Source of the DNA: Trypanosoma brucei
Lineage: Eukaryota
Direction: 5' to 3'
Length of the DNA stretch: 64,000 nucleotides
Assembly (NCBI GenBank): GCA_000002445.1
Contig: CH464491.1
Coordinates: 32,001 to 96,000, forward strand
The position numbers and the translations under genes were made by a program. Positions 1 to 44,921 of the stretch are shown one piece after another (position 1 is the first letter of the stretch; each line of letters starts with the position of its first letter). The notes beneath the pieces were generated by a model that was not told the DNA's origin, searched no databases, and worked only from the letters and a program-made list of their open reading frames with translations.

Positions 1-3000
1 ATTCATCATTCCATTCTTCCGTATTAGTGCGAGGAAGCGGTACACGCCAACGTTCACAGTACGGCATCAATAGTTTCTCACGTTGCTGACCTTTGAATGT
101 GGCGAGTAACATTTGAAGTGAACTCATGATCATCTGAGCTGATTCACTTAATTCCACGCGTGATGAGCTATTCTCACTTGTGGAGTTGGTGGTTTCATTC
201 CCATCTTCAAAGTAATAATCATGATCCAAGCGTAGGGCTGCAAAGGTACGACCCGGTACTGCATTAAGTTGGTATAATTGTACCGGTTGGGGAACACCAC
301 GCAACTGAACGGGTCCGAGTGCGGTTACATCAAGTTGATGCCGCTGTGATTCACTTAAAGACATATAAGTTGCATGTGTTAGTAATACTTGCCCACCATT
401 GGCAACACTCTCCGTGCGAGCTGCCATATTGGTGGTGGGACCGTAGTAATCGAAACCTTTTGTAACTTCATCATGTCGAATATCACAAAGCCCAGTATGA
501 ATACCAATGCGTACACGCAAACCACTCCATAACCGACAATACACCTCAGAGTCCAGACATGCAGTAGGAGAAGTGTATTCATTATCCTCCTTCGCATTCG
601 TTTCCTCAAACTCACGGTAGAAATTATCCAATGCATCCGTACCCCAATCATTATGTAAAAACACAAGTTGGAGGTCTGCTGCAAGTTGTACAGCCTTAAA
701 TGGGTCCTGACATGCAATCATAAAAGAATCACCAATAGTTTTCACTTCATAGCAGTCGTGCTTAAGTACCAGTTGGCGAATCATACGGTGATGTGCTGCC
801 ACAGCTTCAGTCATAATATCAGGGTAAGTTGCCCACTGTGCTGTGCTGCTTTCAATATCAGTGAAAATAAGTGTCACAGGATCAGTCGGCTGCCTCGGTG
901 CTAGTTCGTTATCACGCTTGTTACTGATGGTACAGTATAGTGCTACTCCAAGGGTAACAAAAAGTAATAACGCGAAAACTAAACCAATAATGATGCCAAC
1001 TACCTGAGAGGATGACAACTGAACACGAATTTTTTTGTACACAATAGAAGGTGTCACCGGCTCCTGCATTACAGGAAGGGTGGGGTCCAATACGCGGCCG
1101 AAGGACCATACAGATATGTCTGTGGCACCATAATTCCAAACACAATTACCAGACAATTGTACACCGTTGGCAATACAATCAGCATCATTAAAGGGCCCAT
1201 ACCTCATATCATCAACAACAAAGGAAGTTTGCCAAAATATTTCATCAGACAATAGGGAAGAGCTAACCTTCTTCATGGGTAACAGAAGTGTTTGCATCAC
1301 TCGAGCGATGGCAAAGCCACGCAGTGACATTGGTGACCATTGTGACGGATCGGGAATGGCTTCATGGTAAGCAATAATGGTTTCCGATGTGGAACTATTA
1401 TCAGCCCAATGCGGCAAACTAGTGGCGAAAAGCAGGCGCTGTGCCTTGGCGTTTGCAGTCACACTGAACTCTAACTTCAGTTCCTCGTAATATAATAACA
1501 AGTCCGTGAATGTTATGAACACACGAGCTTGAGGATGGGTGTCAAGGTATTTTGATATCGTTTTCACATCGGGAGTTGTAAGTCCGAGTATGAACACGTC
1601 ACCACCATGTTTCAAGTGCTCCATATGGATATCAGAAACATGTTCATTCAAAAGAACTCTGGACCCGAGTGATGCACCAAAAGTCATAAGTGACATGGAC
1701 AGTACCTCAGCAACTTCAGCTGCTTCATCACTCCGAATTATAGTGTGAGCAATATGATTTGTTAAACGTGAGAAATACTGCGCAAGCACATACAGTTCTT
1801 GGGTGAGCGTAGGGAAAAAGTGTATGACATTCCTTTTGAATGTGCTCACCTGAGGAAAAACTACCATAGGGTCAAAGAAGATAACATCCGGTGTGGTGAG
1901 CACCTCATTGGTTACAACACCGAATACAGCAGAAACAATCCTTTCATCCAATGTATCAATAAGGTCCTTCGCAGCTCCTGAATATGAAGAATTAAGGGAA
2001 TGAAGATAAAGTCGGTCTCTACCTTCCCCGAATATTCGGAGGAATGTAGCGAATATACCTCTGTAGTACCTCAGGTTAGCGCGGTGTGCGTTTTCCATAT
2101 CGGCCATCATTATTATGCTGCTGCTCATCGGGGCATACAAAGGAACACTTAAGGTACCGCACTCAGAACCTTTTTGAAGAAAGAACCCTCTCCTCAGCGA
2201 AGCAAACTGGTATTTTTCCACCACTTCCTTCATATACACTACACTTCCTCCTTGATTGCAACGACACACGGCACCTTGAAGTTGAGCAGCACTGCCACAC
2301 TCACCTCCAAAGTCACCAATCACCATATCATCAATCAAGTAACGGCGCTGATTATAAAGTGATAATCTAAACAAGGTGCGATTTGTTAATGATATGCTGT
2401 CAACTAATGCTCGCATAAGCATCTCTCCAGCAAGCCACCCAAGAACCATCAATTCTCCACTGTTATGGTTTGTGTCAAAGTGTTCTGGTTTCGCAAAACC
2501 ACCCCAGTTCTCGTTAGTATTCAAATATTTTGTCATTTCTTCACGGAAGCGTTGAATGATTTTGTATCGTGTGTCACTCGCAAGTGGACCAGTACCAGTA
2601 ATAATAAGTTGACCAGCTTTTAATTCCGTGTTAGTTTCTTCCAAAGCTTCCTTCCAGGTATTCAGCAGAAATGTTTGCGAACTAGACGTAGTGAGTACAA
2701 AGGCATCTGCTGTATAATCCTCTCTCAATAAGTAGTGAATAAATTTTTTGGTGATGTCATGTGGAGAACCAAATAGCAACACGGCTTGTGGTCGTGTCTT
2801 CACAAATTTCTCCCACTCCTTGTCGAATGCGTCATCTCCAATACGCTCATTAACATTACCATCAATGGCAAATGTACCACACAACTTATATCCCATCATA
2901 GACATCACCTGCTCTGTAAAGGTATATGAAGAATCACCAAAGTTTGTGCCTTTCAGATACATAAAACCCACGCGTCGAAGTCGAAGAAATACGACAGCAT

Positions 3001-3487
3001 AACGAATCAGAGCAAGTAACTCAGCTTTGGGTTCAACACTTGGATAATAGAAATGAGGATTCCACCCACGAACTTCATCAGAATAAGAGAGAGGTGCAAA
3101 GGCAACTAAATCATGTTCCTCCAATTTGTCTCGAATCCAAAGTACGTTTTGGTTCCCCAGTGGTCCAACTATAACAAGAAGCTGTTCTTTACTATTCTTT
3201 ACTGCGTCATTGAAAGTTTCTTCGATTGTTTGATTGTAAGATGATGGTGTTTGTAAAGAAATTTCAAAATCAGATGCCTTTTCGACACTATTGGTTGCCA
3301 AAGATGCACTCAAACCTGCGTTGAGGGAGTTTACAATTTCGACATCCGCTTTCATATTATACATGAGATTCAGAACCTTAACAGTAACTTTGTCGGATGC
3401 TCCAACCGTGCGCATTAGCACCACAGTAGCCACTAATGCTGCGAATAATAACTTGCGGATGTGTGCGTGCCGTCGGTTATTTGCCAT
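1..3487 (-). CDS. GRESAG4: Receptor-type adenylate cyclase, GRESAG4/ESAG4 family. It is 5'-complete in the window, and the C-terminus continues past position 1.
   Basis: The minus-strand frame is open from the ATG at 3487..3485 down to the window edge, and the track shows no stop-terminated ORF in this frame. The N-terminus MANNRRHAHIRKLLFAALVATVVLMRTVGASDK looks like a signal peptide. A large extracellular domain follows, then one TM helix (VVGIIIGLVFALLLFVTLGVALY). The class III cyclase catalytic domain reads LIFTDIESSTAQWA...YEVKTIGDSFMIAC...GLRVRIGIHTGLCDIRHDEVTKGFDYYGPTTNMAARTESVANGGQVLLT. Confidence 0.85.
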   Translation of the reverse strand, partial: MANNRRHAHIRKLLFAALVATVVLMRTVGASDKVTVKVLNLMYNMKADVEIVNSLNAGLSASLATNSVEKASDFEISLQTPSSYNQTIEETFNDAVKNSKEQLLVIVGPLGNQNVLWIRDKLEEHDLVAFAPLSYSDEVRGWNPHFYYPSVEPKAELLALIRYAVVFLRLRRVGFMYLKGTNFGDSSYTFTEQVMSMMGYKLCGTFAIDGNVNERIGDDAFDKEWEKFVKTRPQAVLLFGSPHDITKKFIHYLLREDYTADAFVLTTSSSQTFLLNTWKEALEETNTELKAGQLIITGTGPLASDTRYKIIQRFREEMTKYLNTNENWGGFAKPEHFDTNHNSGELMVLGWLAGEMLMRALVDSISLTNRTLFRLSLYNQRRYLIDDMVIGDFGGECGSAAQLQGAVCRCNQGGSVVYMKEVVEKYQFASLRRGFFLQKGSECGTLSVPLYAPMSSSIIMMADMENAHRANLRYYRGIFATFLRIFGEGRDRLYLHSLNSSYSGAAKDLIDTLDERIVSAVFGVVTNEVLTTPDVIFFDPMVVFPQVSTFKRNVIHFFPTLTQELYVLAQYFSRLTNHIAHTIIRSDEAAEVAEVLSMSLMTFGASLGSRVLLNEHVSDIHMEHLKHGGDVFILGLTTPDVKTISKYLDTHPQARVFITFTDLLLYYEELKLEFSVTANAKAQRLLFATSLPHWADNSSTSETIIAYHEAIPDPSQWSPMSLRGFAIARVMQTLLLPMKKVSSSLLSDEIFWQTSFVVDDMRYGPFNDADCIANGVQLSGNCVWNYGATDISVWSFGRVLDPTLPVMQEPVTPSIVYKKIRVQLSSSQVVGIIIGLVFALLLFVTLGVALYCTISNKRDNELAPRQPTDPVTLIFTDIESSTAQWATYPDIMTEAVAAHHRMIRQLVLKHDCYEVKTIGDSFMIACQDPFKAVQLAADLQLVFLHNDWGTDALDNFYREFEETNAKEDNEYTSPTACLDSEVYCRLWSGLRVRIGIHTGLCDIRHDEVTKGFDYYGPTTNMAARTESVANGGQVLLTHATYMSLSESQRHQLDVTALGPVQLRGVPQPVQLYQLNAVPGRTFAALRLDHDYYFEDGNETTNSTSENSSSRVELSESAQMIMSSLQMLLATFKGQQREKLLMPYCERWRVPLPRTNTEEWNDE

Positions 3488-4189
3488 CAGCGGCAAACTC
3501 CTGTTGGTTGGCACTGGTGGTGAATGAAATGTTACAGCTTTTATGGTTGTAATGACGTCCCTGTAGCACATGGTTAAAGACACACTTTGAAAAATTTTGG
3601 GGCGGCGCTACGTTGTTCTAAAAAGGTAAGGAGACTGATATGTAATGAATGGGATATCTGAAGTGACGATGAGATGTTGTGTCATTCTGAGTGAAGAGCA
3701 AACGGGCCTCGTATATTAATTCTGTGAACGTGTCTACAGACGATTCTTTAGATGGTGAATATTTATTCCTTCTTGCAGTGAACCAAAGCCTAACAGAAGT
3801 GACACCTGCTATCGAATGATTCGCCTTCACATTCAACCAGTTACAGACAGTTAGTGTCTTTTTAAAATTGGCGGTAGATAACTTGGCTGACCAAGTGATA
3901 ATTAAAAGATTTGCTGTAAAACGAATATTAGCAACTACACTTCACCGCAAAAATGGGGACTTTGTGCTGCCACCCCTACGCTCATAGGGATTAGAAACCC
4001 TGCACAAAAGAATAAAAGGTCGCACGTAGTTGAAATTGTTTCTCGCCAAACGATTCGCGGCTGATCTCAACCCCCCTATTTCAGAAAAATTAACATCCGG
4101 TGTTCCGCTCAATTGCTACCGGGTGCTGTTACCAATCGTAGGTGAAGTTACAGCGGTCAAGTTATTTGTCCCTTCGGTACACCTTTAAT

Positions 4190-4320
4190 AGTGAGAAAAA
4201 GAAAAAAAAGGAATCAAAAGAGGGCACAAGTTGAGTTGGGTGAGAAGTATTAGACGAACAGGTAGTGTATATGCATTGACGGTAACAGTCAAAGAAAAAA
4301 GAGGGAAAAAGTAACAACAT
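4190..4320 (-). promoter_or_regulatory. Polypyrimidine tract(s) on the minus strand upstream of the GRESAG4 start, a candidate trans-splicing signal.
   Basis: The plus strand reads gagaaaaagaaaaaaaaggaatcaaaagaggg...aaagaaaaaagagggaaaaag. That is C/T-rich on the coding (minus) strand, 700-830 nt upstream of the ATG at 3487. Confidence 0.35.
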
Positions 4321-4566
4321 CAATACCAATTAGAATGGAGTTGTGAGAGTAACACCACCTGAGACCCTTTTCTCGTTTCTTTCTTCATTGCGTCGCGTAA
4401 AAATAAAAAAAACAAAAGTGTAAACAGTTACGATGGGCTTCACACCTGTGCCAGTTTTTATCCCGCCTGTACTGACGCCCTTTTGACACCCCAATTGACG
4501 TGCATAACTGACATTCAACAGTTTGAAAGGTTTCAGAGCCTCGGGTAATAATTTTTGACTCAATAT

Positions 4567-4830
4567 TTAGCGGCCGTCTCCACCCAAAAGAGAAGCCTCA
4601 CTTTCGGGAATGTAATCGAGAACATCGATCCCATCTTCAAAGAACTCGTCGAGGAATTCGAAGTCTGAGTCAAATAATGCACCATAATCCTCATCATCAT
4701 TCGCTGGTTTTTTTTGTCCATCACAACCATTAGTCCCACACCTCACGCTAGTGGCAAGTAGTGGCCGTGACATGCTACGCATATGGACCAAGAAATTACT
4801 TGTGATTGGGACGTGTAACCTCCGTAACAT
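4567..4830 (-). CDS. Small hypothetical protein with a strongly acidic C-terminus. The true start is probably an internal Met (MRSMSRP..., about 70 aa).
   Basis: An 87-codon minus ORF ending DYGALFDSDFEFLDEFFEDGIDVLDYIPESEASLLGGDGR. It is co-oriented with the gene array. I do not recognise a family. Confidence 0.3.
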   Translation of the reverse strand: MLRRLHVPITSNFLVHMRSMSRPLLATSVRCGTNGCDGQKKPANDDEDYGALFDSDFEFLDEFFEDGIDVLDYIPESEASLLGGDGR

Positions 4831-4904
4831 TTTCCCTGTTTCTTTTTTTAGACAATTAACTTTAAGTCATGATTTAAAGTCAAAAAAAAAATCAAAAAGG
4901 AAAA

Positions 4905-4931
4905 ATATATGTATATATATATATATATATA
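4905..4931. repeat. (TA)n microsatellite.
   Basis: The sequence tatatgtatatatatatatatatatat, read directly. Confidence 0.9.
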
Positions 4932-5085
4932 ACATGAAATTATTGGCTTTATTTGCACGACAAAATATATAATTATTTAGACATGTATCATAACACGCGT
5001 ACTTATGAGACTTCATATAATGGGAATAGTTACAAACAATGTTCCGAATGTGGGGTAAAAGATGATGATGATGATAATGGCACGA

Positions 5086-5451
5086 CTATCGCAGTAGAAC
5101 GCACCAAAAGAAGATCAAAACGAAAAACACCACAACCCCAATTAAAAGTGTGTGGCGGAATCCATAACGTTGCACCACCTCTCCGATACGACCCACAGAC
5201 CGATTGACACCACTCGATGCACGCGAGAAGGCGGAACCCACGAAAGAAAGCATTTGATTTTGTTCTTCCACCTCTTGTCGTAATGTATCTGCGGAAGTTT
5301 TCACTTTAGCTGCTGTATTACCCAAAGCGTTCAACAGAGCCTCATTCTCCTTCACGAGATCTTCTTCAAATTGCGCACGCTTCTCAGCACTTAAATCATC
5401 AGATTGTTTTTCCAAACGTTGTCCACCAAAGACGGTGGATCTCATTTCCAA
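5086..5451 (-). CDS. Bet1/SFT1-like Qc-SNARE, a tail-anchored Golgi SNARE.
   Basis: A 121-aa protein with a SNARE-like heptad region (NEALLNALGNTAAKVKTSADTLRQEVEEQNQMLSFVGSAFSRASSGVNRSVGRI). It has one C-terminal TM anchor, LLIGVVVFFVLIFFWCVLLR, at the extreme C-terminus. Size and layout match Bet1-family SNAREs. Confidence 0.55.
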   Translation of the reverse strand: MEMRSTVFGGQRLEKQSDDLSAEKRAQFEEDLVKENEALLNALGNTAAKVKTSADTLRQEVEEQNQMLSFVGSAFSRASSGVNRSVGRIGEVVQRYGFRHTLLIGVVVFFVLIFFWCVLLR

Positions 5452-6133
5452 AGTGATAGATGTAAGTATTTACCCTCAGCTTGTAAGTAAAGAATCGCAA
5501 TACACAAAAACACGCGCACACTTTTTTATTATCGTACACGAGTTCCGTGAAAAAACGTTCGCTAATTTCTATGACAGGCAAAGAGCAGCGCCCACCGGAA
5601 ATAAATTGTCTTTTCTTTCCCTTTTTAAATGTGTAGAAGCAAATATGTTTTTTTTTGTTCTTCCATTTCACAGCCCAACAACAACAACAAAAAGAGATAT
5701 ATGGTAGCAATTGCGCTCACAATAAGTAACATCATAGCAGAGGACAAGAATGATTGTAATTGTGTTTGCACATATATAAACGTAAATATATATATATTTC
5801 TTTCCCTCTTAACAGGCATTCCTCAGAATCCTTCCGTTTCGATAGCACACACAAAAAAAAAAAGCATCGGTTTGTCATCGCAGACGTTACGATTTCATCA
5901 TGCGCCGGCAGCCAATGTTGCGTCGTTTCATCCGCCGCTTTTTGTCGTGTTCCATACGTATTTCTATACGATAGGGACGTTTAACGTTATATCCCATTCC
6001 ACCAACAAATGTTCTCTTGAGAAACTGTGACCAAAGCGCCAGCGATGGAGTAAACATAAGTAACTACCCTTTTTTTTTGCTTTTGCTTTTTTCTTTTTTT
6101 TTTTCACCGCTGACGGTGCGGCTGCTTCGACTA

Positions 6134-6146
6134 TTTTTTTTTTTTT
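6134..6146. repeat. Poly(T) homopolymer of about 13 nt inside a T-rich low-complexity spacer (6060-6240).
   Basis: The sequence ctattttttttttttttgtgt, read directly. Flanking sequence has ctttttttttgcttttgcttttttctttttttttttcacc. Confidence 0.9.
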
Positions 6147-6284
6147 GTGTACGCCTCCGATACTTATTTTACATGAAATTTTTGGCAGGACAATGCGAAA
6201 TGTACCAATTTTTTTTTAAAAAAATAAAAATGCAACAAGGGGGAAAAAAGAAAACATAATGAAATAAATACGTATACTTACATA

Positions 6285-6308
6285 TTATATATATATATAT
6301 ATATATAT
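6285..6308. repeat. (TA)12 microsatellite.
   Basis: The sequence tatatatatatatatatatatatat, read directly. Confidence 0.9.
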
Positions 6309-6948
6309 TTACATATTTGTATCAACAACAACAAACATAGTTATGGCGAATGCTTTTGGTAGTGTCGTTGAGGGTGACACGACGCGTGAAGTGAAATGCA
6401 AATATATATATAATATATTAAAATAAACTGTTATTTGCATTTATATTTCCTTATAGGGAAGGGAAGGTGCAGACACATGGACAGGGATAATTCTTCCTTC
6501 AAGTGTTCGGTGCCTCATGCAAATTACGAAATATTTATCGCAGTTCTACACAACCCCAACAAATCAAACAAAAAAGCAAGCACTAACATATATCCATTTT
6601 GTTTTTCTCTAATTGTTTCTTTTTTTTTTCCGAGTAAATTAAAAAAAAAGGAAAGTGGAAATCAAGACGAAAACAATAACAACAGTAACAAAAAAAGGGG
6701 TACAATCCTTCCATCCAACCATTATGTGAACCCCTACAACTCTACCCTTCCTGTTTTCTTATCACTTTCTTTTTTTTTCAAATTTAAACATTCATTTTTC
6801 GTTCCTAATTTACTTCCGTTACGGGAGTTCCGACACGCTGCAAATTATAAAACATAACCAAAACGGAGTGAAGGCGATGAACCGGCTTTGTCATTTTCCC
6901 GTTGCTGGTCATTTGAAACGCTTCGTCAAAAAACTCCACTTCCGGAAT

Positions 6949-7179
6949 TCACTCAACCACACCGCCCCTATGGGAAGTAATGGTAAAATATATTTGAACC
7001 ACCGTTGAACCGAGAACAATAAATAAAATTGTTGCACCAAGCCAACTGGGCAATGCAGAGGCATTTTCACGCTTCTCGCGTAGTTTTTTCTTTTCCTCAT
7101 CAGAGAGTCGTGGCATGCTGATTTGGCTGTTTTGCTTCTGCGCCTTAACGCGAATCATCCTTGTAGGGCTTAAAGGCAT
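6949..7179 (-). CDS. RAMP4/SERP1/YSY6-family stress-associated ER membrane protein. The likely start is the second Met at 7158.
   Basis: A 76-codon ORF with a basic N-terminal half (RLSDEEKKKLREKRENAS) followed by the family motif ALPSWLGATILFIVLGSTVVQIYFTI. Compare yeast YSY6 ...ISKTWLGILLFLLVGGGVLQLI and human SERP1 [21 protein letters not shown]. It has one C-terminal TM. Confidence 0.55.
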   Translation of the reverse strand: MPLSPTRMIRVKAQKQNSQISMPRLSDEEKKKLREKRENASALPSWLGATILFIVLGSTVVQIYFTITSHRGGVVE

Positions 7180-7514
7180 TTTTTTTTTAAAAAAAATTTT
7201 TTGTTTTGTGTGTCGGGGTTGCTCCGGCTTAATTCGGTTCTAAAAAAAAAACTTAAAATCTACTATTGATGGAATAGGAAGCGGAAATAACCGTCGATGA
7301 TAATGACAATCAAGAAAAGAAAAAAAAAGAAGGGATCATCGAACACACACATGCGTGACAGAACACGGACAGAAAAGTAGGCATTATATGATGATGAAAT
7401 GCAACGACAAACCATGACAAAGCACTGCGGTAAAAACAAAAAAATTGTAATAAATACTTCTTCACAATAGAAGAGGATTAATAAAAATGCATTGAAGCAG
7501 GTGGCAGTGTCAGC

Positions 7515-9029
7515 CTATCGCACTCCATAACTTCGAAGGTTGAAATAATGGGCCTTCATACTCATCCGCTTCCCCAACTCTTCCGTGTAGTTTTGTACAC
7601 CACGCAAATCCTTTGAGAGATTCACACGGAAATAGAGATTGAAGGGTAATGCAAAGGGAATACGTTTGGCGTAGTCAACAATGTGACCGAGGCATCGCTG
7701 TTCATCTTCTGCATTCCACCAAAAACAAACATTAGGGTGAAGAAAACAAGTAACATCAACAACTGGTTGCAATAACTGACGCGTCACGTCCTGCGCTGAG
7801 GACCGAGTTACCTGGCGGAATGTACTTTTTACGATAATAGACGGTGCAAATGGTAAAATCACAGGAATACCACCAGAAAACAGTTGTGGAGGCGGCTCCT
7901 GAAACCATGGCACTTCGCTTCCATCTGCTCGCACAATCCGCTGCTCCACCACTTGTATCGCTTCATCACCCGCAGACGACGGCGGCACAACTTGAACGTT
8001 AAAAGCTGTTGCGTGACGGCTGGGAATGTCGGGATCACCCATTTCACCTGGTTTCAGATCGAGTGGTTGCCGGTCCCTTTCCACGGCATACATTTCTAAC
8101 ATTTCCCATATAACCTGCTTTGTGATATTTGCATGAAGTTCCCATTCCTCAGCCGCCTCCACAATTTGCGGAATCACGCGTGGATCCTCCCGGTGGACAC
8201 GAAACTCATATCCAATTGTAGTTACTTGAAAAGTTGGATTCTCCGGTGTGCTCCAAACACGCGGGCTGAGGGAATGATCAAAGCGACCAACAACAGAGAA
8301 ATCCGGCTCGGAACGGACCTCCACAAGTACACCAGACCGCTCAACACTCCTAACAGATGATCGCCTACACAACTGAAGTGCCGCGGTATTTGCTTTCGCC
8401 TTTCCCTCAAAGTAAACATCATTGGTATGTCCATTACGTCCACAACGCCATCCATGATTTGCATTTCCTCGATTCATACAAACGACGGTGGAGTGCCTTG
8501 AGTCGGTTTGCCGGAGGACGCCACACACCTTCGCTTCAATTGCGGGAAGGAGAGCCGCGCGTTCCGTGCGTGTGAGATGCAACACCTTATCGAAAAGTAC
8601 AATAAGTTCCTCACGGCTCAACCACTTGAGTTCATGCCAATCAATACCCTCATCCTTCAGTTTGTCGTAGTGCTTTTCCAAGTTACAAAGCATTTTGTAT
8701 TGTCTCCGACCGACGTGCCCACTGAGTTTTTCCAAAATGAGTTTTAGAGAAGTGTACCTGTTGTTTTCGCCCACAACATTAAAAGTATTGCTCAGGACCA
8801 TCTTTCGAGGCACCGAATATCGGGGATGATAACGGAGTGCATCCGCGGGAATAACACTACGTGTAGGAACCTTTGACACTTTACATAACACAGCAGTCCA
8901 TCTCATGCGATCAAAACAATAACGCAGCACAACTTCCCTCGAGACTTTAATATCAGAGAAGAGGTTTGTAACAACATAAAGTAGAAAGAAAAAAAGGCAA
9001 CACGGGGAGGTCAGGAAAAAGGAAAGCAC
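7515..9029 (-). CDS. Conserved hypothetical protein. The 504-codon ORF's first 40 or so codons probably read through the upstream polypyrimidine tract, so the real start is likely MRWTAVL... or later.
   Basis: A long uninterrupted minus ORF co-oriented with the array. The N-terminal stretch MLSFFLTSPCCLFFFLLYVV is what a Y-tract produces on translation. No family recognised. Confidence 0.5.
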   Translation of the reverse strand: MLSFFLTSPCCLFFFLLYVVTNLFSDIKVSREVVLRYCFDRMRWTAVLCKVSKVPTRSVIPADALRYHPRYSVPRKMVLSNTFNVVGENNRYTSLKLILEKLSGHVGRRQYKMLCNLEKHYDKLKDEGIDWHELKWLSREELIVLFDKVLHLTRTERAALLPAIEAKVCGVLRQTDSRHSTVVCMNRGNANHGWRCGRNGHTNDVYFEGKAKANTAALQLCRRSSVRSVERSGVLVEVRSEPDFSVVGRFDHSLSPRVWSTPENPTFQVTTIGYEFRVHREDPRVIPQIVEAAEEWELHANITKQVIWEMLEMYAVERDRQPLDLKPGEMGDPDIPSRHATAFNVQVVPPSSAGDEAIQVVEQRIVRADGSEVPWFQEPPPQLFSGGIPVILPFAPSIIVKSTFRQVTRSSAQDVTRQLLQPVVDVTCFLHPNVCFWWNAEDEQRCLGHIVDYAKRIPFALPFNLYFRVNLSKDLRGVQNYTEELGKRMSMKAHYFNLRSYGVR

Positions 9030-41966: not shown

Positions 41967-44921
41967 TCAACTGGACTGGGATTCTCCTTCAGTTCGACTG
42001 GTTTTGACTCTCTCCACAAGTTGCTTGTTGACGTGCAGTAGTCGCATCGCCTTTTCCTGAATATCGGCATTCTGTTTTTGTAACTCCTCGTGGCCCTTAC
42101 GTAGCGACTCCTCTCTACTCGCAGAAGCCGCAAGCTCTGCACGCAAACGCGCCAACTCTTCATCTCTTCCTCTAATGAGCGACTCGTGCGCACTCATTGC
42201 GGCAGCCAACTGCTCCTTCAGGGCGGCTAACTGTCCCTGCTCGCCTTCGGTTGCCGTGTCGGCGCCCTGCAATGGTTCCGTTTCCTCCGCAACATCTAAA
42301 GCCGCTGTCTCTGTTTGAAGGGAGTTTCGGAACAGCTCCGCCCGCTGCAGCGCCTGCCGCAACGTATCCGCCACCTGCCTCACGCCAGATCGAAGTAAAT
42401 GAGACTCTATGGCTTCCTTTTCTCCACTGTTCCCCGGTATTGTTTCCGACAAATACACGAGCTGCTCTTTCACAGCAGTGAATCCACTACACAGTTCCTC
42501 TAGCTGTTGTCCAAGTGGTCCCTTCATGCATTCCACACGCTCTTCGGGGTTGCTGGCTGGAGGTGACTGTTCACCGTCCGCAGCAATCTGTTGGAGTTGT
42601 CGTTGCTGACGATGCAGTTGCTCTACCAGGGTTGTCTCGCGTGTGAGATGTTCCTGCAACGACGACAAAAGGTCGCTGTTGTGGTTCTTCAGTAGCTTCA
42701 GTTGCAGAGCAGTGTGTTCGGCATCCTCGCTAATATTTTGCTTTTCTTCCCGTAATGCTGCCAATTCGGTCATGGCTGCATCTCGCACAGCCTGAAGTGA
42801 TGTAAGTTGTTCCCGCATTGCTGCTATCTGCTCGGAAGCCTCCACAGCGTCAAGCGAATTGTCTACCGGTGCTTCGTGCATCAGCACACGATCCATCGCA
42901 ACCAAACCATGCTGATCAATCAATTGCTCGCAGCGGGCAAGCCGTTCCAATGCCAAATCTCGTTCTTTAGTTACCTCACGCACCTTGTCCAGTAGCATAC
43001 TCACGTTTTGCCCGTCGTTGATGGCAGCATCCAACAAATTGGTCTCCGTCATCTGAGTTGTCTCAAGTTTATTTGATAAGAAATGTAATGTCTGCGCCAA
43101 GGTCTCCCGCAGCAAAGAGCGAATTTCGTCACGTTGGTGTCTCTCCATTGTCACATCCACAACAACGGCAGCGTTTTCCGAACGATCGTTCGCGGCGCTA
43201 GCAACCGATTGCAGTGACTCAAACGTTGCGATCAGCCGCAAAACCTGCTGCCCAAAGGCACGCAAGTCCTCCTCACGTTGCGCTGCTTTATCATTCAACA
43301 TTGCTTCAAAGGAGGTTATTGCCTTCTGAAAGTGTGCTTCACTCCGTGAAACCGCGTCCTTGACTTCAGCAGCCAGTTGACCTGACTGTACGACACCACT
43401 CCCGCCCTGATGTCTTCTCCCCTTGTCGTCAACTCGCTTGGAATCGACACGTTGCAGAGCGGATGAAACATCAGTCATTGTGCGCTCCGTTATCTTAAGT
43501 GCTTCCTCTACCTCTCTTGTTGCTCGTTGCTGCGTTTCGGCTTGCGCGACGGCCAGCGCACATTGCGTTTCTGCATTTACTGTATCATTCCGTAAACGAG
43601 AAACCTCCTCCTCATAGTACCGTCGCAGTGCAGCCACCGTGTGTACCACCTTACCTGCATCCGAATCATCTTTCAATTGCTGGACGGTTCTTTCCAACTC
43701 CGCGCACTTGGCCCTCTCGTCAGACAACTGTTCCCGCGCCATATTCAGAGATGTCGCCATCTGAACGGAGTTATCGAGAGCCCTTGTATAGTCCATGCGC
43801 AGTTGCGTCAGCTGCTGCGAAAGCGATTCACTACCACTGGGATGAATACGCTCACGCACCAAATCCGCCAACCTGTGTTCCACTACTTCCCGCCTCTGCC
43901 GCTCCTCAATGAAGTGCTCATGGACTGTCAGCGCCTCCCGTCGCAACACGGCAACTGACTCCTTAAGAGCGACATATTTCGCCTCCGCCTCCGCAATACG
44001 TGACTCCTGCCGCTGCCACGCATCGACAAGCTCAGATAACGTCACATCACGGTGCTGCAGTAGTCGTAGGGCAAAGTACTCCGGTGCGGTACGCTGCAAC
44101 GCTGGATTCGGCGGCTCCGTTCCCGGCTGTACGGGCACGAAATCTGGGGGAACTATAGCATGCACAACACCACTAAGGTCCAAATGTTTCTCAAGGAGGC
44201 GTACGTGGGCCTTTGCTTGACGAAGTTGTGAACTCACATGGTCTGCATCCTTACCCTTTGAAGCCAAAATGCGCACCATATCGATAAGAGAAAGCACCTC
44301 TTCATGATGGCGAAGGGATGCATTCTGATAAAAGGAAAGAGAACTCTGCAGACGGGCAATAGTAACGTCCTTTTTCAATGCCGAGAGGTCGGCATCTAGA
44401 GCCCTCTGCGAGTACACCTGAAGGGCCTGAAGCGCACCCCGGAGAAGATTCTGCACACGTTCCACAAGTTTTTCATTTATTTGCTGCTCACCCTCCAGTT
44501 GCGATGAAAACAAAGCAATTGTCGTCTTACTCGCTGAGTCGAAACCTTTCATCAGTTCACCCACGGCAAGGGCGGTAGAACTCTCTAACTGCTCCTTCAT
44601 AATACCTATTGAGAGGGTTTTCTGCCGAGAGTCATCCGCAATACGAGCATGTGAAAGGGCAGTAACTACACGGTTCGCTTGGCATCGCGACATCTGCTTC
44701 CATAATTCGGCATTTGAAGTGCGTGATCCCTCTAACGTGCGCTGAAGTTGCTGCGCCTTTCGCACTACAGACTGCAGTACAGCACCGTTAACGCTGCCGA
44801 CACTTTTCGTAATCTCATCCAACTCCAATGACATGTGCTGGAAAGTGGCGGAGCAGGTTTCCTGTATTGCACCTTCCCCTTCACTATTCTCTTCCCTCGA
44901 CCTTTTTGACCCAGGGAACAT
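41967..44921 (-). CDS. Large coiled-coil protein (984 aa).
   Basis: Almost entirely heptad-repeat sequence rich in E, L, Q and R. It is co-oriented and sits next to LC8. Confidence 0.55.
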   Translation of the reverse strand: MFPGSKRSREENSEGEGAIQETCSATFQHMSLELDEITKSVGSVNGAVLQSVVRKAQQLQRTLEGSRTSNAELWKQMSRCQANRVVTALSHARIADDSRQKTLSIGIMKEQLESSTALAVGELMKGFDSASKTTIALFSSQLEGEQQINEKLVERVQNLLRGALQALQVYSQRALDADLSALKKDVTIARLQSSLSFYQNASLRHHEEVLSLIDMVRILASKGKDADHVSSQLRQAKAHVRLLEKHLDLSGVVHAIVPPDFVPVQPGTEPPNPALQRTAPEYFALRLLQHRDVTLSELVDAWQRQESRIAEAEAKYVALKESVAVLRREALTVHEHFIEERQRREVVEHRLADLVRERIHPSGSESLSQQLTQLRMDYTRALDNSVQMATSLNMAREQLSDERAKCAELERTVQQLKDDSDAGKVVHTVAALRRYYEEEVSRLRNDTVNAETQCALAVAQAETQQRATREVEEALKITERTMTDVSSALQRVDSKRVDDKGRRHQGGSGVVQSGQLAAEVKDAVSRSEAHFQKAITSFEAMLNDKAAQREEDLRAFGQQVLRLIATFESLQSVASAANDRSENAAVVVDVTMERHQRDEIRSLLRETLAQTLHFLSNKLETTQMTETNLLDAAINDGQNVSMLLDKVREVTKERDLALERLARCEQLIDQHGLVAMDRVLMHEAPVDNSLDAVEASEQIAAMREQLTSLQAVRDAAMTELAALREEKQNISEDAEHTALQLKLLKNHNSDLLSSLQEHLTRETTLVEQLHRQQRQLQQIAADGEQSPPASNPEERVECMKGPLGQQLEELCSGFTAVKEQLVYLSETIPGNSGEKEAIESHLLRSGVRQVADTLRQALQRAELFRNSLQTETAALDVAEETEPLQGADTATEGEQGQLAALKEQLAAAMSAHESLIRGRDEELARLRAELAASASREESLRKGHEELQKQNADIQEKAMRLLHVNKQLVERVKTSRTEGESQSS

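What the first reader, a model, noticed from the sequence alone, without database searches (positions are those of the whole stretch)
1..3487. A receptor-type adenylate cyclase (GRESAG4 family) terminates the gene array and runs off the window edge
All 1162 in-window codons of the minus-strand frame are open. The architecture reads signal peptide, large periplasmic-binding-protein-like ectodomain, one TM helix, then a class III cyclase domain. That combination is the hallmark of the African-trypanosome-expanded ESAG4/GRESAG4 family. The family is linked to innate-immune modulation and social motility. This gene is the strongest taxonomic anchor for the whole window. Family members are highly similar paralogues and are prone to recombination and mis-assembly, so which paralogue this is, and whether it is intact, is worth checking once the missing C-terminus is available.
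Basis: partly seen in the sequence, partly recalled or inferred. Interest (0 to 1): 0.5.

Follow-up and report, generated by a model that had tools for sequence, protein, structure and literature searches.

The report
Known Trypanosoma brucei receptor adenylate cyclase
This is an ordinary, already annotated receptor-type adenylate cyclase gene (GRESAG4 family) of the sleeping-sickness parasite Trypanosoma brucei, intact as far as the window shows and lacking only its last ~51 codons at the window edge.

Summary
The minus-strand frame 3487..2 is open for all 1162 codons (chance ~3e-31), while the other five frames have 48-103 stops.

The interpretation also holds. The protein has a signal peptide and two periplasmic-binding-protein/Venus-flytrap modules (PF25495, PF25493; fold match to LIV-binding proteins). 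It has one TM helix (aa 829-852) and a class III cyclase domain with every catalytic residue, aligning without gaps at E 1e-114 to the T. brucei GRESAG4.1 crystal structure.

It is the ortholog of T. b. gambiense DAL972 XP_011779150 (98.4% aa). That gene is the terminal gene of the DAL972 chromosome 11 record and supplies the missing 51 codons. It is 97.9% identical to GenBank CAA09951.

Against TREU927 XP_828107 ("ESAG4, putative") it is 97.8% identical, except for two cassettes (aa 42-101 and 424-500) that are only 30-37% identical. This is an A/B mosaic seen in several independent sequences. It fits the recombination already described for this family.

The neighbours are housekeeping genes, so this is a GRESAG4, not an expression-site ESAG4.

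Refinements:
- The architecture marks all trypanosomatids, not only the African species.
- An upstream in-frame ATG (3571) exists but evolves like non-coding DNA.

Novelty: none. Interest: low.

The parts
2..3487 (-). In-window coding sequence of the receptor-type adenylate cyclase (codons 1-1162). It runs off the window at position 1, and about 51 codons plus the stop are missing.
   Evidence: Open frame. 98.4% aa identity to DAL972 XP_011779150. The missing tail, EYCREVIHRIAAKVGRVADHYAGTHSNHSITTLSSTSVVIISDNKILLDED*, was read from L002.
3398..3487 (-). Predicted signal peptide, aa 1-30 (MANNRRHAHIRKLLFAALVATVVLMRTVGA | SDK)
   Evidence: Hydrophobic 19-mer peak of 1.94 over aa 10-31. Basic n-region and small residues at positions -3 and -1, read directly. 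No dedicated predictor was available.
3569..3571 (-). Alternative upstream in-frame ATG (+28 codons, MCYRD...), used as the start in the DAL972 annotation; probably not coding
   Evidence: The extension diverges 7% from DAL972, and 7 of 7 changed codons are nonsynonymous.
3618..3634 (-). Pyrimidine-rich tract (tctccttaccttttt) followed by AG; a candidate trans-splice acceptor upstream of both ATGs
   Evidence: Read directly. Inference only; no RNA data.
3185..3364 (-). Divergent cassette 1 (aa 42-101), 'A type': alpha1-beta2-alpha2 of the first Venus-flytrap module
   Evidence: 36.7% identical to TREU927 P0001, against 97.8% outside the patches, and 100% to DAL972 P0044. Well folded, pLDDT 76-91.
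2594..3025 (-). PF25495 Peripla_BP_A-cyclase_1 (aa 155-298), core of the first PBP/VFT module
   Evidence: E 4.9e-57. Fold match to type I PBPs.
1988..2218 (-). Divergent cassette 2 (aa 424-500), 'A type': linker hairpin plus the first beta-alpha-beta of the second VFT module
   Evidence: 29.9% identical to P0001 and 100% to P0044. Same frame, so not a frameshift. Invariant C443 and conserved G434, P453 and D463 are kept.
1034..2140 (-). PF25493 Peripla_BP_A-cyclase (aa 450-818), second PBP/VFT module
   Evidence: E 5.1e-127, full-length match 1-373 of 373.
932..1003 (-). Single transmembrane helix, aa 829-852 (VVGIIIGLVFALLLFVTLGVALYC)
   Evidence: The only strong internal hydrophobic segment; KD 19-mer maximum 2.98.
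263..895 (-). Class III cyclase homology domain (PF00211, aa 865-1075). It carries metal-binding D877 and D920, K916 and D1013, and N1020 and R1024, plus the trypanosome-specific Delta-subdomain insert.
   Evidence: Gapless 233-residue alignment to 1fx2 (GRESAG4.1), E 4.5e-114.
2..262 (-). Start of the cytosolic C-terminal tail (aa 1076-1162), truncated by the window edge

Best explanation
The feature is the chromosome 11 GRESAG4-type receptor adenylate cyclase gene of a Trypanosoma brucei-group parasite. It is the ortholog of T. b. gambiense XP_011779150 and T. b. brucei TREU927 XP_828107, and matches GenBank CAA09951. It is the last in-window gene of a minus-strand polycistronic unit of housekeeping genes, at or near the boundary between the chromosome core and the subtelomere.

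Shown here: it encodes a type I membrane protein with a cleavable signal peptide, an ectodomain of about 800 aa built from two periplasmic-binding-protein/Venus-flytrap modules, and one TM helix. A cytosolic class III cyclase domain follows, with all metal-binding, substrate-specifying and transition-state residues intact.

Inferred from the family: two cyclase domains must pair head-to-tail to form the active sites that convert ATP to cAMP. The ectodomain, whose ligand is unknown, and membrane stress control that pairing. The protein probably sits in the flagellar membrane.

The window copy is the 'A' form of a two-form mosaic. It differs from the TREU927 'B' form almost only in two cassettes, which cover the first beta-alpha-beta unit of each flytrap module. 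These most likely arose by segmental gene conversion from an unsampled paralogue.
For: - Open frame.
- Domains.
- Crystal-structure match: E 1e-114, gapless, to GRESAG4.1.
- Catalytic motifs, TM helix and signal peptide.
- Best hits are all T. brucei-group cyclases.
- Cluster mates and accessions.
- Identity to P0044 and P0046 is 98.4% and 97.9%.
- Collinear DNA: 97.5% identity to the end of DAL972 chr 11 and 98.8% to GCA_001457755.2.
- Neighbours are housekeeping genes: ETF, BipA-like GTPase, CPSF100, UCH, WDR19/IFT144 and a mitochondrial carrier. All large ORFs lie on the minus strand.
- Ectodomain model: pLDDT 86, pTM 0.85. Its best solved-structure matches are LIV-binding-protein-like type I PBPs (TM 0.7-0.77), followed by GABA-B and mGluR flytraps.
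- Mosaic: 97.8% identity outside the patches, against 36.7% and 29.9% inside them.
- The A form occurs in four independent sequences: the window, DAL972, CAA09951 and, for patch 1, L001.
- The B patches are 62-65% identical to the next paralogue and the A patches only 43-47%. The A patches are therefore the aberrant ones.
- Outside the patches, 58 of 91 pairs of informative sites fail the four-gamete test.
- Family mechanism (dimerisation requirement, stress activation, two VFT modules, Delta-subdomain) and the measured activity of the GRESAG4.4B catalytic domain: review PMC6027212.
- Mosaics in T. brucei GRESAG4 arrays, and cyclases at the subtelomeres adjoining the cores: PMC2854126.
Against: - The C-terminus and stop codon are off the window, so full intactness is not shown.
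- No expression, localisation or activity data exist for this copy.
- The signal peptide call rests on hydropathy and the -3/-1 rule, not on a trained predictor.
- No donor for the A cassettes was found among 49 family proteins, so conversion is inferred, not demonstrated.
- No B-type DNA could be retrieved, so the cassette breakpoints are known only at the protein level.
- Whether A and B are alleles of one locus or neighbouring copies is unresolved.
- The link between CAA09951/CAA09952 and the published names GRESAG4.4A/B rests on my memory and on cluster membership. The paper is not held.
Confidence: 0.93

Rival explanations
1. It is a true ESAG4: the cyclase gene carried inside a telomeric VSG bloodstream expression site and transcribed with the active VSG. 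The NCBI names of the TREU927 and DAL972 orthologs ('ESAG4, putative' and 'ESAG') would suggest this.
For: Source annotations of P0001 and P0044. The gene lies at the end of the DAL972 chromosome 11 record. A weakly VSG-like fragment follows it in L001.
Against: The 60 kb upstream on the same strand is an unbroken array of housekeeping genes, with no other ESAG, no VSG and no second cyclase fragment in the window. The protein groups with chromosome-internal GRESAG4 copies: 70% to P0048, and 49-52% to the GRESAG4.1 group. It is only 43% identical to another TREU927 protein labelled ESAG4 (P0022). ESAG4 is defined by residence in the subtelomeric VSG expression site (PMC9481589).
Confidence: 0.03
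2. The gene is a pseudogene or an assembly chimera, and the two divergent cassettes are paralogous reads collapsed into one consensus.
For: Family members are similar enough to be mis-assembled. In GCA_001457755.2 the same gene is interrupted by two runs of N and joined to unrelated sequence. The DAL972 record has a duplicated 2.7-kb block around a 100-N gap just upstream. The TREU927 model starts at M42 and lacks a signal peptide.
Against: The same A-type cassettes occur in independent sequences: the DAL972 genome, the cloned CAA09951, and patch 1 in L001. The frame is open. In the cassettes, 7 of 8 highly conserved family residues are kept, including invariant C443; the eighth is a conservative L to M change. 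The cassettes fold confidently. Substitutions against DAL972 are mostly synonymous, 35 against 19.
Confidence: 0.03
3. It is a catalytically dead receptor-like protein (a pseudo-cyclase) that only modulates other cyclases by heterodimerising with them.
For: The family is large and redundant. The GRESAG4.4B catalytic domain alone has only low activity until it is forced to dimerise (PMC6027212).
Against: D877, D920, K916, D1013, N1020 and R1024 are all present. The catalytic domain is 98.3% identical to P0045, the B-form GenBank entry. It aligns without gaps to active GRESAG4.1. Leucine-zipper dimerisation raised GRESAG4.4B activity more than 20-fold.
Confidence: 0.04

Closest known systems
T. 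b. gambiense DAL972 XP_011779150.1 / CBH16886.1 ('expression site-associated gene (ESAG)'), terminal gene of the chromosome 11 record FN554974.1
   Same: 98.4% aa and 98.4% nt identity over all 1162 codons, with identical A-type cassettes and collinear flanking DNA (97.5%).
   Different: There are 19 amino-acid differences, 13 of them in aa 164-324, and a one-codon indel (Y258 against HH). The annotated start is 28 codons further upstream.
T. b. brucei TREU927 XP_828107.1 / Q387N6 ('ESAG4 protein, putative'), chromosome 11
   Same: 97.8% identical outside the two cassettes, with the same domain order and the same C-terminal tail.
   Different: It carries B-type cassettes, 36.7% and 29.9% identical to the window's. 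Its model starts at M42 and so lacks the signal peptide. Synteny with the window could not be checked, because the locus was not retrievable.
GenBank CAA09951.1 and CAA09952.1, 'adenylate cyclase [Trypanosoma brucei]'; probably GRESAG4.4A and 4.4B of Naula et al. 2001 (Mol Biochem Parasitol 112:19)
   Same: CAA09951 is 97.9% identical and A-type. CAA09952 is B-type, with a catalytic domain 98.3% identical. The GRESAG4.4B catalytic domain dimerises and is activated more than 20-fold by a leucine zipper (PMC6027212).
   Different: Both entries start at M42 and end in a different short tail (SPSNVTQHIQRSAT). The link between these accessions and the published names is from memory and was not verified.
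GRESAG4.1 and GRESAG4.3 catalytic domains (PDB 1fx2, 1fx4)
   Same: Gapless alignment over 230-233 residues, E 1e-114 and 1e-111. Same catalytic residues and the same Delta-subdomain insert.
   Different: Full-length GRESAG4.1 (P0011) is only 49% identical, because the ectodomain is highly divergent.
ESAG4 of VSG expression sites
   Same: Same family and topology. The family's roles in TNF-alpha suppression and cytokinesis were worked out on ESAG4 (PMC6027212).
   Different: ESAG4 lies in a telomeric Pol I expression site, whereas this gene follows housekeeping genes in a core array.
Mammalian receptor guanylyl cyclases (ANP receptor NPR-A) and type I bacterial PBPs
   Same: An extracellular flytrap module, a single TM helix and an intracellular class III cyclase that must dimerise. 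The ectodomain fold matches LIV-BP-like PBPs and GABA-B/mGluR flytraps.
   Different: Two flytrap modules instead of one, no kinase-homology domain, adenylate instead of guanylate specificity (K916/D1013), and no detectable sequence match to PF01094 ANF_receptor.

Membership tests
Trypanosomatid receptor-type adenylate cyclase (ESAG4/GRESAG4 family) | Large extracellular domain (~90 kDa) with two Venus-flytrap / PBP-like modules | tested here: met
   PF25495 E 5e-57 and PF25493 E 5e-127. AlphaFold model pLDDT 86. Foldseek top hits are type I PBPs, TM 0.7-0.77. Definition from PMC6027212.
Trypanosomatid receptor-type adenylate cyclase (ESAG4/GRESAG4 family) | Single transmembrane helix between ectodomain and cytosolic domain | tested here: met
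   One internal hydrophobic segment, aa 829-852, KD 2.98.
Trypanosomatid receptor-type adenylate cyclase (ESAG4/GRESAG4 family) | N-terminal signal peptide (type I topology) | tested here: met
   Basic n-region, 13-residue h-region and VGA|S cleavage motif. This is a heuristic call with no trained predictor. It depends on ATG 3487 being the start, which favour.
Trypanosomatid receptor-type adenylate cyclase (ESAG4/GRESAG4 family) | Class III cyclase homology domain with metal-binding Asp pair, Lys/Asp adenine specificity and Asn/Arg transition-state residues | tested here: met
   PF00211 E 2e-37. D877, D920, K916, D1013, N1020 and R1024 are present.
Trypanosomatid receptor-type adenylate cyclase (ESAG4/GRESAG4 family) | Trypanosome-specific Delta-subdomain insert (~36 aa) in the alpha3-beta4 loop | tested here: met
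   Gapless alignment through this region to 1fx2 and 1fx4. Feature described in PMC6027212.
Trypanosomatid receptor-type adenylate cyclase (ESAG4/GRESAG4 family) | Variable cytosolic C-terminal tail of ~110 aa after the catalytic domain | tested here: inconclusive
   87 residues of the tail are in the window (aa 1076-1162). The remaining ~51 and the stop codon are off the edge. The DAL972 ortholog has them intact.
Trypanosomatid receptor-type adenylate cyclase (ESAG4/GRESAG4 family) | Adenylate cyclase activity dependent on catalytic-domain dimerisation | not testable with these tools
   Reported for GRESAG4.4B and GRESAG4.1 (PMC6027212). The catalytic domain here is 98.3% identical to the B-form entry P0045.
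ESAG4 proper | Located inside a telomeric VSG bloodstream expression site, co-transcribed with other ESAGs and a VSG | tested here: not met
   Upstream genes on the same strand are housekeeping genes. There is no other ESAG, VSG or cyclase fragment in the 64 kb. The downstream side is off the window.
GRESAG4 (genes related to ESAG4, outside expression sites) | Family member in a chromosomal (non-expression-site) position | tested here: met
   It is part of a core polycistronic array that is collinear with DAL972 chromosome 11.
GRESAG4.4 subfamily (Naula et al. 2001) | Near-identity to the deposited GRESAG4.4A/B sequences | tested here: inconclusive
   97.9% identical to CAA09951 and in the same 90% cluster as CAA09952. 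That these accessions are the published GRESAG4.4A/B could not be verified: the paper is not held, and no held paper mentions the accessions.

The most novel reading that the evidence does not exclude
The two A/B cassettes, which cover the first beta-alpha-beta unit of each Venus-flytrap module, may be an old polymorphism shared across subspecies. The A form is found in gambiense DAL972, the window strain, GCA_001457755.2 and one cloned copy. The B form is found in TREU927 and another clone. On this reading the cassettes were created by segmental conversion from an unsampled, possibly subtelomeric, cyclase copy and were then kept by selection, because they change ligand specificity or antigenic surface while the signalling half stays constant.
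Probability: 0.2. Interest if true: 0.35.

Novelty: already known. Interest (0 to 1): 0.12.

Why it matters
It matters little beyond annotation. The gene firmly places the window in the T. brucei group, at the end of the chromosome 11 core, and it is a well-studied kind of protein: cAMP signalling, innate-immune subversion and social motility in this family. The one modestly useful point is the clean two-cassette A/B mosaic confined to equivalent parts of the two ligand-binding modules. It is a tidy natural example of the segmental exchange already documented for trypanosome surface-gene families. It could also guide domain-swap experiments on the still unknown ligands of these receptors.

Tried and rejected
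- Compensated frameshift as the origin of the cassettes: rejected. The B-type patches match the window only in the same frame, at about 36%.
- Donor search for the A cassettes among 49 family proteins: none closer than 43-47%. Members hidden inside 90% clusters cannot be excluded.
- Retrieving the TREU927 locus, to get B-type DNA and the downstream context: P0001 is not on record. The window's 463-aa and ETF proteins have no exact match on record.
- Mapping the gene to a TriTrypDB ID or an 'ACP' name: no held paper mentions the accessions. Searches through the CPSF100 neighbour gave no gene ID. Naula et al. 2001 is not held. No ACP identity is claimed.
- Rfam scan of the whole window at gathering thresholds: nothing.
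- Second cyclase copy or fragment in the window: none.
- A regular-expression scan for pyrimidine runs of 8 or more upstream found nothing. The tract at 3620-3634 is interrupted by one A and was read by eye.
Full report
**Observation**

Translating the minus strand from 3487 to 1 gives 1162 codons without a stop. From the local base composition, a stop-free run of that length has a chance of about 3e-31. The other five frames of the same stretch contain 48-103 stops each. The frame is closed upstream by TAG at 3608-3610 and holds two in-frame ATGs, at 3571 and at 3487.

**Which start codon**

The T. b. gambiense annotation uses the upstream ATG (P0044 begins MCYRD...). The 84 nt between the two ATGs do not behave like coding sequence.
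- They differ from the DAL972 ortholog at 6 positions (7%) and from a second assembly (L001) at 2.
- All 7 changed codons are nonsynonymous. Inside the CDS the window and DAL972 differ at 55 of 3486 nt, with 35 synonymous and 19 nonsynonymous codon changes. Fisher's exact test gives p = 0.0015.

Starting at 3487, the protein opens with a textbook signal peptide: a basic n-region, a 13-residue hydrophobic core, and V-G-A before S31. A pyrimidine-rich tract followed by AG at 3634-3618 lies upstream of both ATGs, so only spliced-leader mapping can settle the question.

**What the protein is**

Pfam finds four things:
- PF25495 (Peripla_BP_A-cyclase_1) at aa 155-298, E 5e-57.
- PF25493 (Peripla_BP_A-cyclase) at aa 450-818, E 5e-127, matched end to end.
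- PF00211 (Guanylate_cyc) at aa 865-1075, E 2e-37.
- The generic Peripla_BP_6 model only below its cutoff.

The only strong internal hydrophobic segment is aa 829-852.

The catalytic domain aligns without a single gap over 233 residues to the crystal structure of T. brucei GRESAG4.1 (1fx2, E 4.5e-114), and over 230 residues to GRESAG4.3 (1fx4, E 9e-111). That span includes the trypanosome-specific Delta-subdomain insert described in the review PMC6027212. The metal-binding aspartates (D877, D920), the adenine-specifying K916 and D1013, and the transition-state N1020 and R1024 are all present.

An AlphaFold model of the ectodomain (aa 31-822), built on a 37-sequence family alignment, is confident: mean pLDDT 86.1, pTM 0.85. 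Its best matches among solved structures are bacterial leucine/isoleucine/valine-binding-protein-like type I periplasmic binding proteins (TM-score 0.7-0.77 normalised to the target). The GABA-B and mGluR Venus-flytrap domains come next.

**Which organism and which paralogue**

All significant relatives are trypanosome receptor cyclases. The best cluster holds four sequences:
- TREU927 XP_828107 ('ESAG4 protein, putative', chromosome 11).
- DAL972 XP_011779150.
- Two GenBank clones, CAA09951 and CAA09952.

The window protein is 98.4% identical to the DAL972 protein, 97.9% to CAA09951, 89.0% to CAA09952 and 89.9% to the TREU927 protein. The next paralogue (XP_828239 / P0048, also on chromosome 11) is 70% identical, and GRESAG4.1 is 49%. 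A neighbour-joining tree places the window with DAL972 and CAA09951. That group is sister to TREU927 plus CAA09952, then to the P0048 group, and then to P0003 and the GRESAG4.1 group.

At the DNA level, window 1-8875 is 97.5% identical and collinear with the DAL972 locus. Window 2796-23086 is 98.8% identical to contig CZPT02000801.1 of GCA_001457755.2. The window therefore comes from a T. brucei-group genome, but from neither of these assemblies. Exact-sequence look-ups of two window proteins found nothing on record.

From memory, CAA09951 and CAA09952 are the GRESAG4.4A and 4.4B of Naula et al. 2001. The review PMC6027212 confirms that a GRESAG4.4B exists and that its catalytic domain dimerises and is activated more than 20-fold by a leucine zipper. 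I could not verify the link between the accessions and the names.

**Intactness and the missing end**

The DAL972 ortholog continues for 51 residues after the window's last codon (EYCREVIHRIAAKVGRVADHYAGTHSNHSITTLSSTSVVIISDNKILLDED, then stop). The full protein should therefore be about 1213 aa from ATG 3487. Within the window nothing suggests decay. The frame is open, substitutions against DAL972 are mostly synonymous, and the catalytic residues are intact.

**Genomic setting**

All 22 ORFs of 200 aa or more in the window are on the minus strand, and GC skew is negative throughout. The ten large genes nearest the cyclase include an ETF subunit, a BipA-like GTPase, CPSF100, a UCH-type deubiquitinase, WDR19/IFT144 and a mitochondrial carrier. 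Between the cyclase and the next large gene lie three small minus-strand ORFs, one of them RAMP4-like.

This is a core Pol II polycistronic unit, not a VSG expression site, so the gene is a GRESAG4 and not an ESAG4, despite the database names.

- In DAL972 the ortholog's stop codon is 89 nt from coordinate 1 of the 4.53-Mb chromosome 11 record.
- In GCA_001457755.2 the broken cyclase gene is followed by sequence with a weak VSG match (PDB 8b3w, E 0.0017).
- The gambiense genome paper notes that adenylate cyclases are prominent in the subtelomeric sequence adjoining the cores (PMC2854126).

**The A/B mosaic**

The 90% identity to TREU927 is not evenly spread. Outside two patches the proteins are 97.8% identical (926 of 947). 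Inside aa 42-101 they are 36.7% identical, and inside aa 424-500 only 29.9%.

The window's 'A' version of both patches is identical in DAL972 and nearly so in CAA09951. Patch 1 is also present in L001. The 'B' version is shared by TREU927 and CAA09952. The mosaic is therefore real and not an assembly artefact of the window.

It is not a compensated frameshift, because the B patches match the window DNA only in the same frame.

The patches fall in the family's most variable segments: mean column conservation is 0.40 and 0.43, against 0.57-0.58 elsewhere. The window still keeps 7 of the 8 highly conserved residues there, including invariant C443; the eighth is a conservative L to M change. The patches are also modelled with good confidence apart from two loops. 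In the model they cover alpha1-beta2-alpha2 of the first flytrap module, and the linker hairpin plus beta1-alpha1-beta2 of the second. These are equivalent N-terminal parts of the two modules.

The B patches are 62-65% identical to the next paralogue, P0048. That is close to the 75% seen outside the patches, given how variable these segments are. The A patches are only 43-47% identical to anything outside their own cluster. My inference is that the A cassettes are the imported ones, brought in by segmental conversion from a paralogue that was not sampled.

Outside the patches, 14 informative amino-acid sites among the five sequences give 58 incompatible pairs out of 91 in a four-gamete test. 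At sites 223, 245, 251 and 254 the window groups with B-type TREU927, against the other A-type sequences. The two forms have therefore kept recombining.

Such mosaics were reported for 31 of 35 variable tandem arrays compared between T. b. brucei and T. b. gambiense, several GRESAG4 arrays among them (PMC2854126). This is an instance of a known process.

**How it most likely works**

Shown here: the domain order, the fold and the catalytic residues.

Inferred from the family (PMC6027212; PMC9481589):
- The protein is a type I membrane receptor. Its cytosolic cyclase domains must pair head-to-tail to form two active sites that make cAMP from ATP.
- Pairing is controlled from outside by the flytrap ectodomain, whose ligand is unknown, and is strongly stimulated by acid, hypotonic or proteolytic stress.
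- Family members sit in the flagellar membrane, bind CARP3 through the catalytic domain, and take part in suppressing host TNF-alpha, in cytokinesis and in social motility.

Which of these roles this particular copy has is not known.

**Rivals considered**

- True expression-site ESAG4: rejected on genomic context.
- Chimera or pseudogene: rejected on independent recurrence of the cassettes, the open frame, conserved residues and the substitution pattern.
- Dead pseudo-enzyme: rejected on intact catalytic residues and near-identity to an entry whose relative is active.

**Verdict**

The gene is already annotated in reference genomes and belongs to a thoroughly described family. The A/B cassette mosaic is neat but matches what is already documented for this family. 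Novelty: already known. Interest: about 0.12.

Noticed in passing
protein P0006 (hit list): A protein labelled 'hypothetical protein Smp_112590 [Schistosoma mansoni]', on a 17.4-kb contig, is a full-length trypanosome GRESAG4. It is 84% identical to T. brucei TREU927 chromosome 6 copies. This probably reflects T. brucei contamination in a Schistosoma record.
   Followed up: partly
L002 1-13815 (DAL972 chr 11 end); window 6213-8875: The DAL972 record carries the block equal to window 6213-8875 twice, on either side of a 100-N gap. This creates a 452-aa 'gene' that partly copies the 463-aa gene. It is likely a scaffolding overlap and not a real duplication.
   Followed up: partly
L001 20238-21962 (GCA_001457755.2, CZPT02000801.1): In this assembly the cyclase gene is interrupted by two runs of N (after about aa 230 and about aa 308) and then joined to unrelated sequence. 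An ORF there weakly matches a VSG structure (8b3w, E 0.0017).
   Followed up: partly
window 4567-4830, 5086-5451, 6949-7179 (all minus strand): The 4 kb between the cyclase and the next large gene holds three small ORFs that other assemblies also call. They are an acidic 87-aa protein, a 121-aa coiled-coil protein with a C-terminal TM anchor, and a 76-aa RAMP4-like protein (PF06624, E 1.4e-4, just below cutoff).
   Followed up: partly
window 1-64000: All 22 ORFs of 200 aa or more lie on the minus strand, and GC skew is negative in every 2-kb bin. This fits a single polycistronic transcription unit running towards position 1.
   Followed up: partly
window 42001-44000 (inside ORF 41967-44921, minus strand, 984 aa): This stretch is a compositional outlier, with GC 0.529 and AT skew -0.158 where the rest of the window is mostly positive. 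The gene was not examined.
   Followed up: no
window 2516-2998 (aa 164-324 of the cyclase): 13 of the 19 amino-acid differences from the DAL972 ortholog cluster here, in the first flytrap module. At sites 223, 245, 251 and 254 the window agrees with the B-type TREU927 protein. This is a third, smaller recombinant tract.
   Followed up: partly
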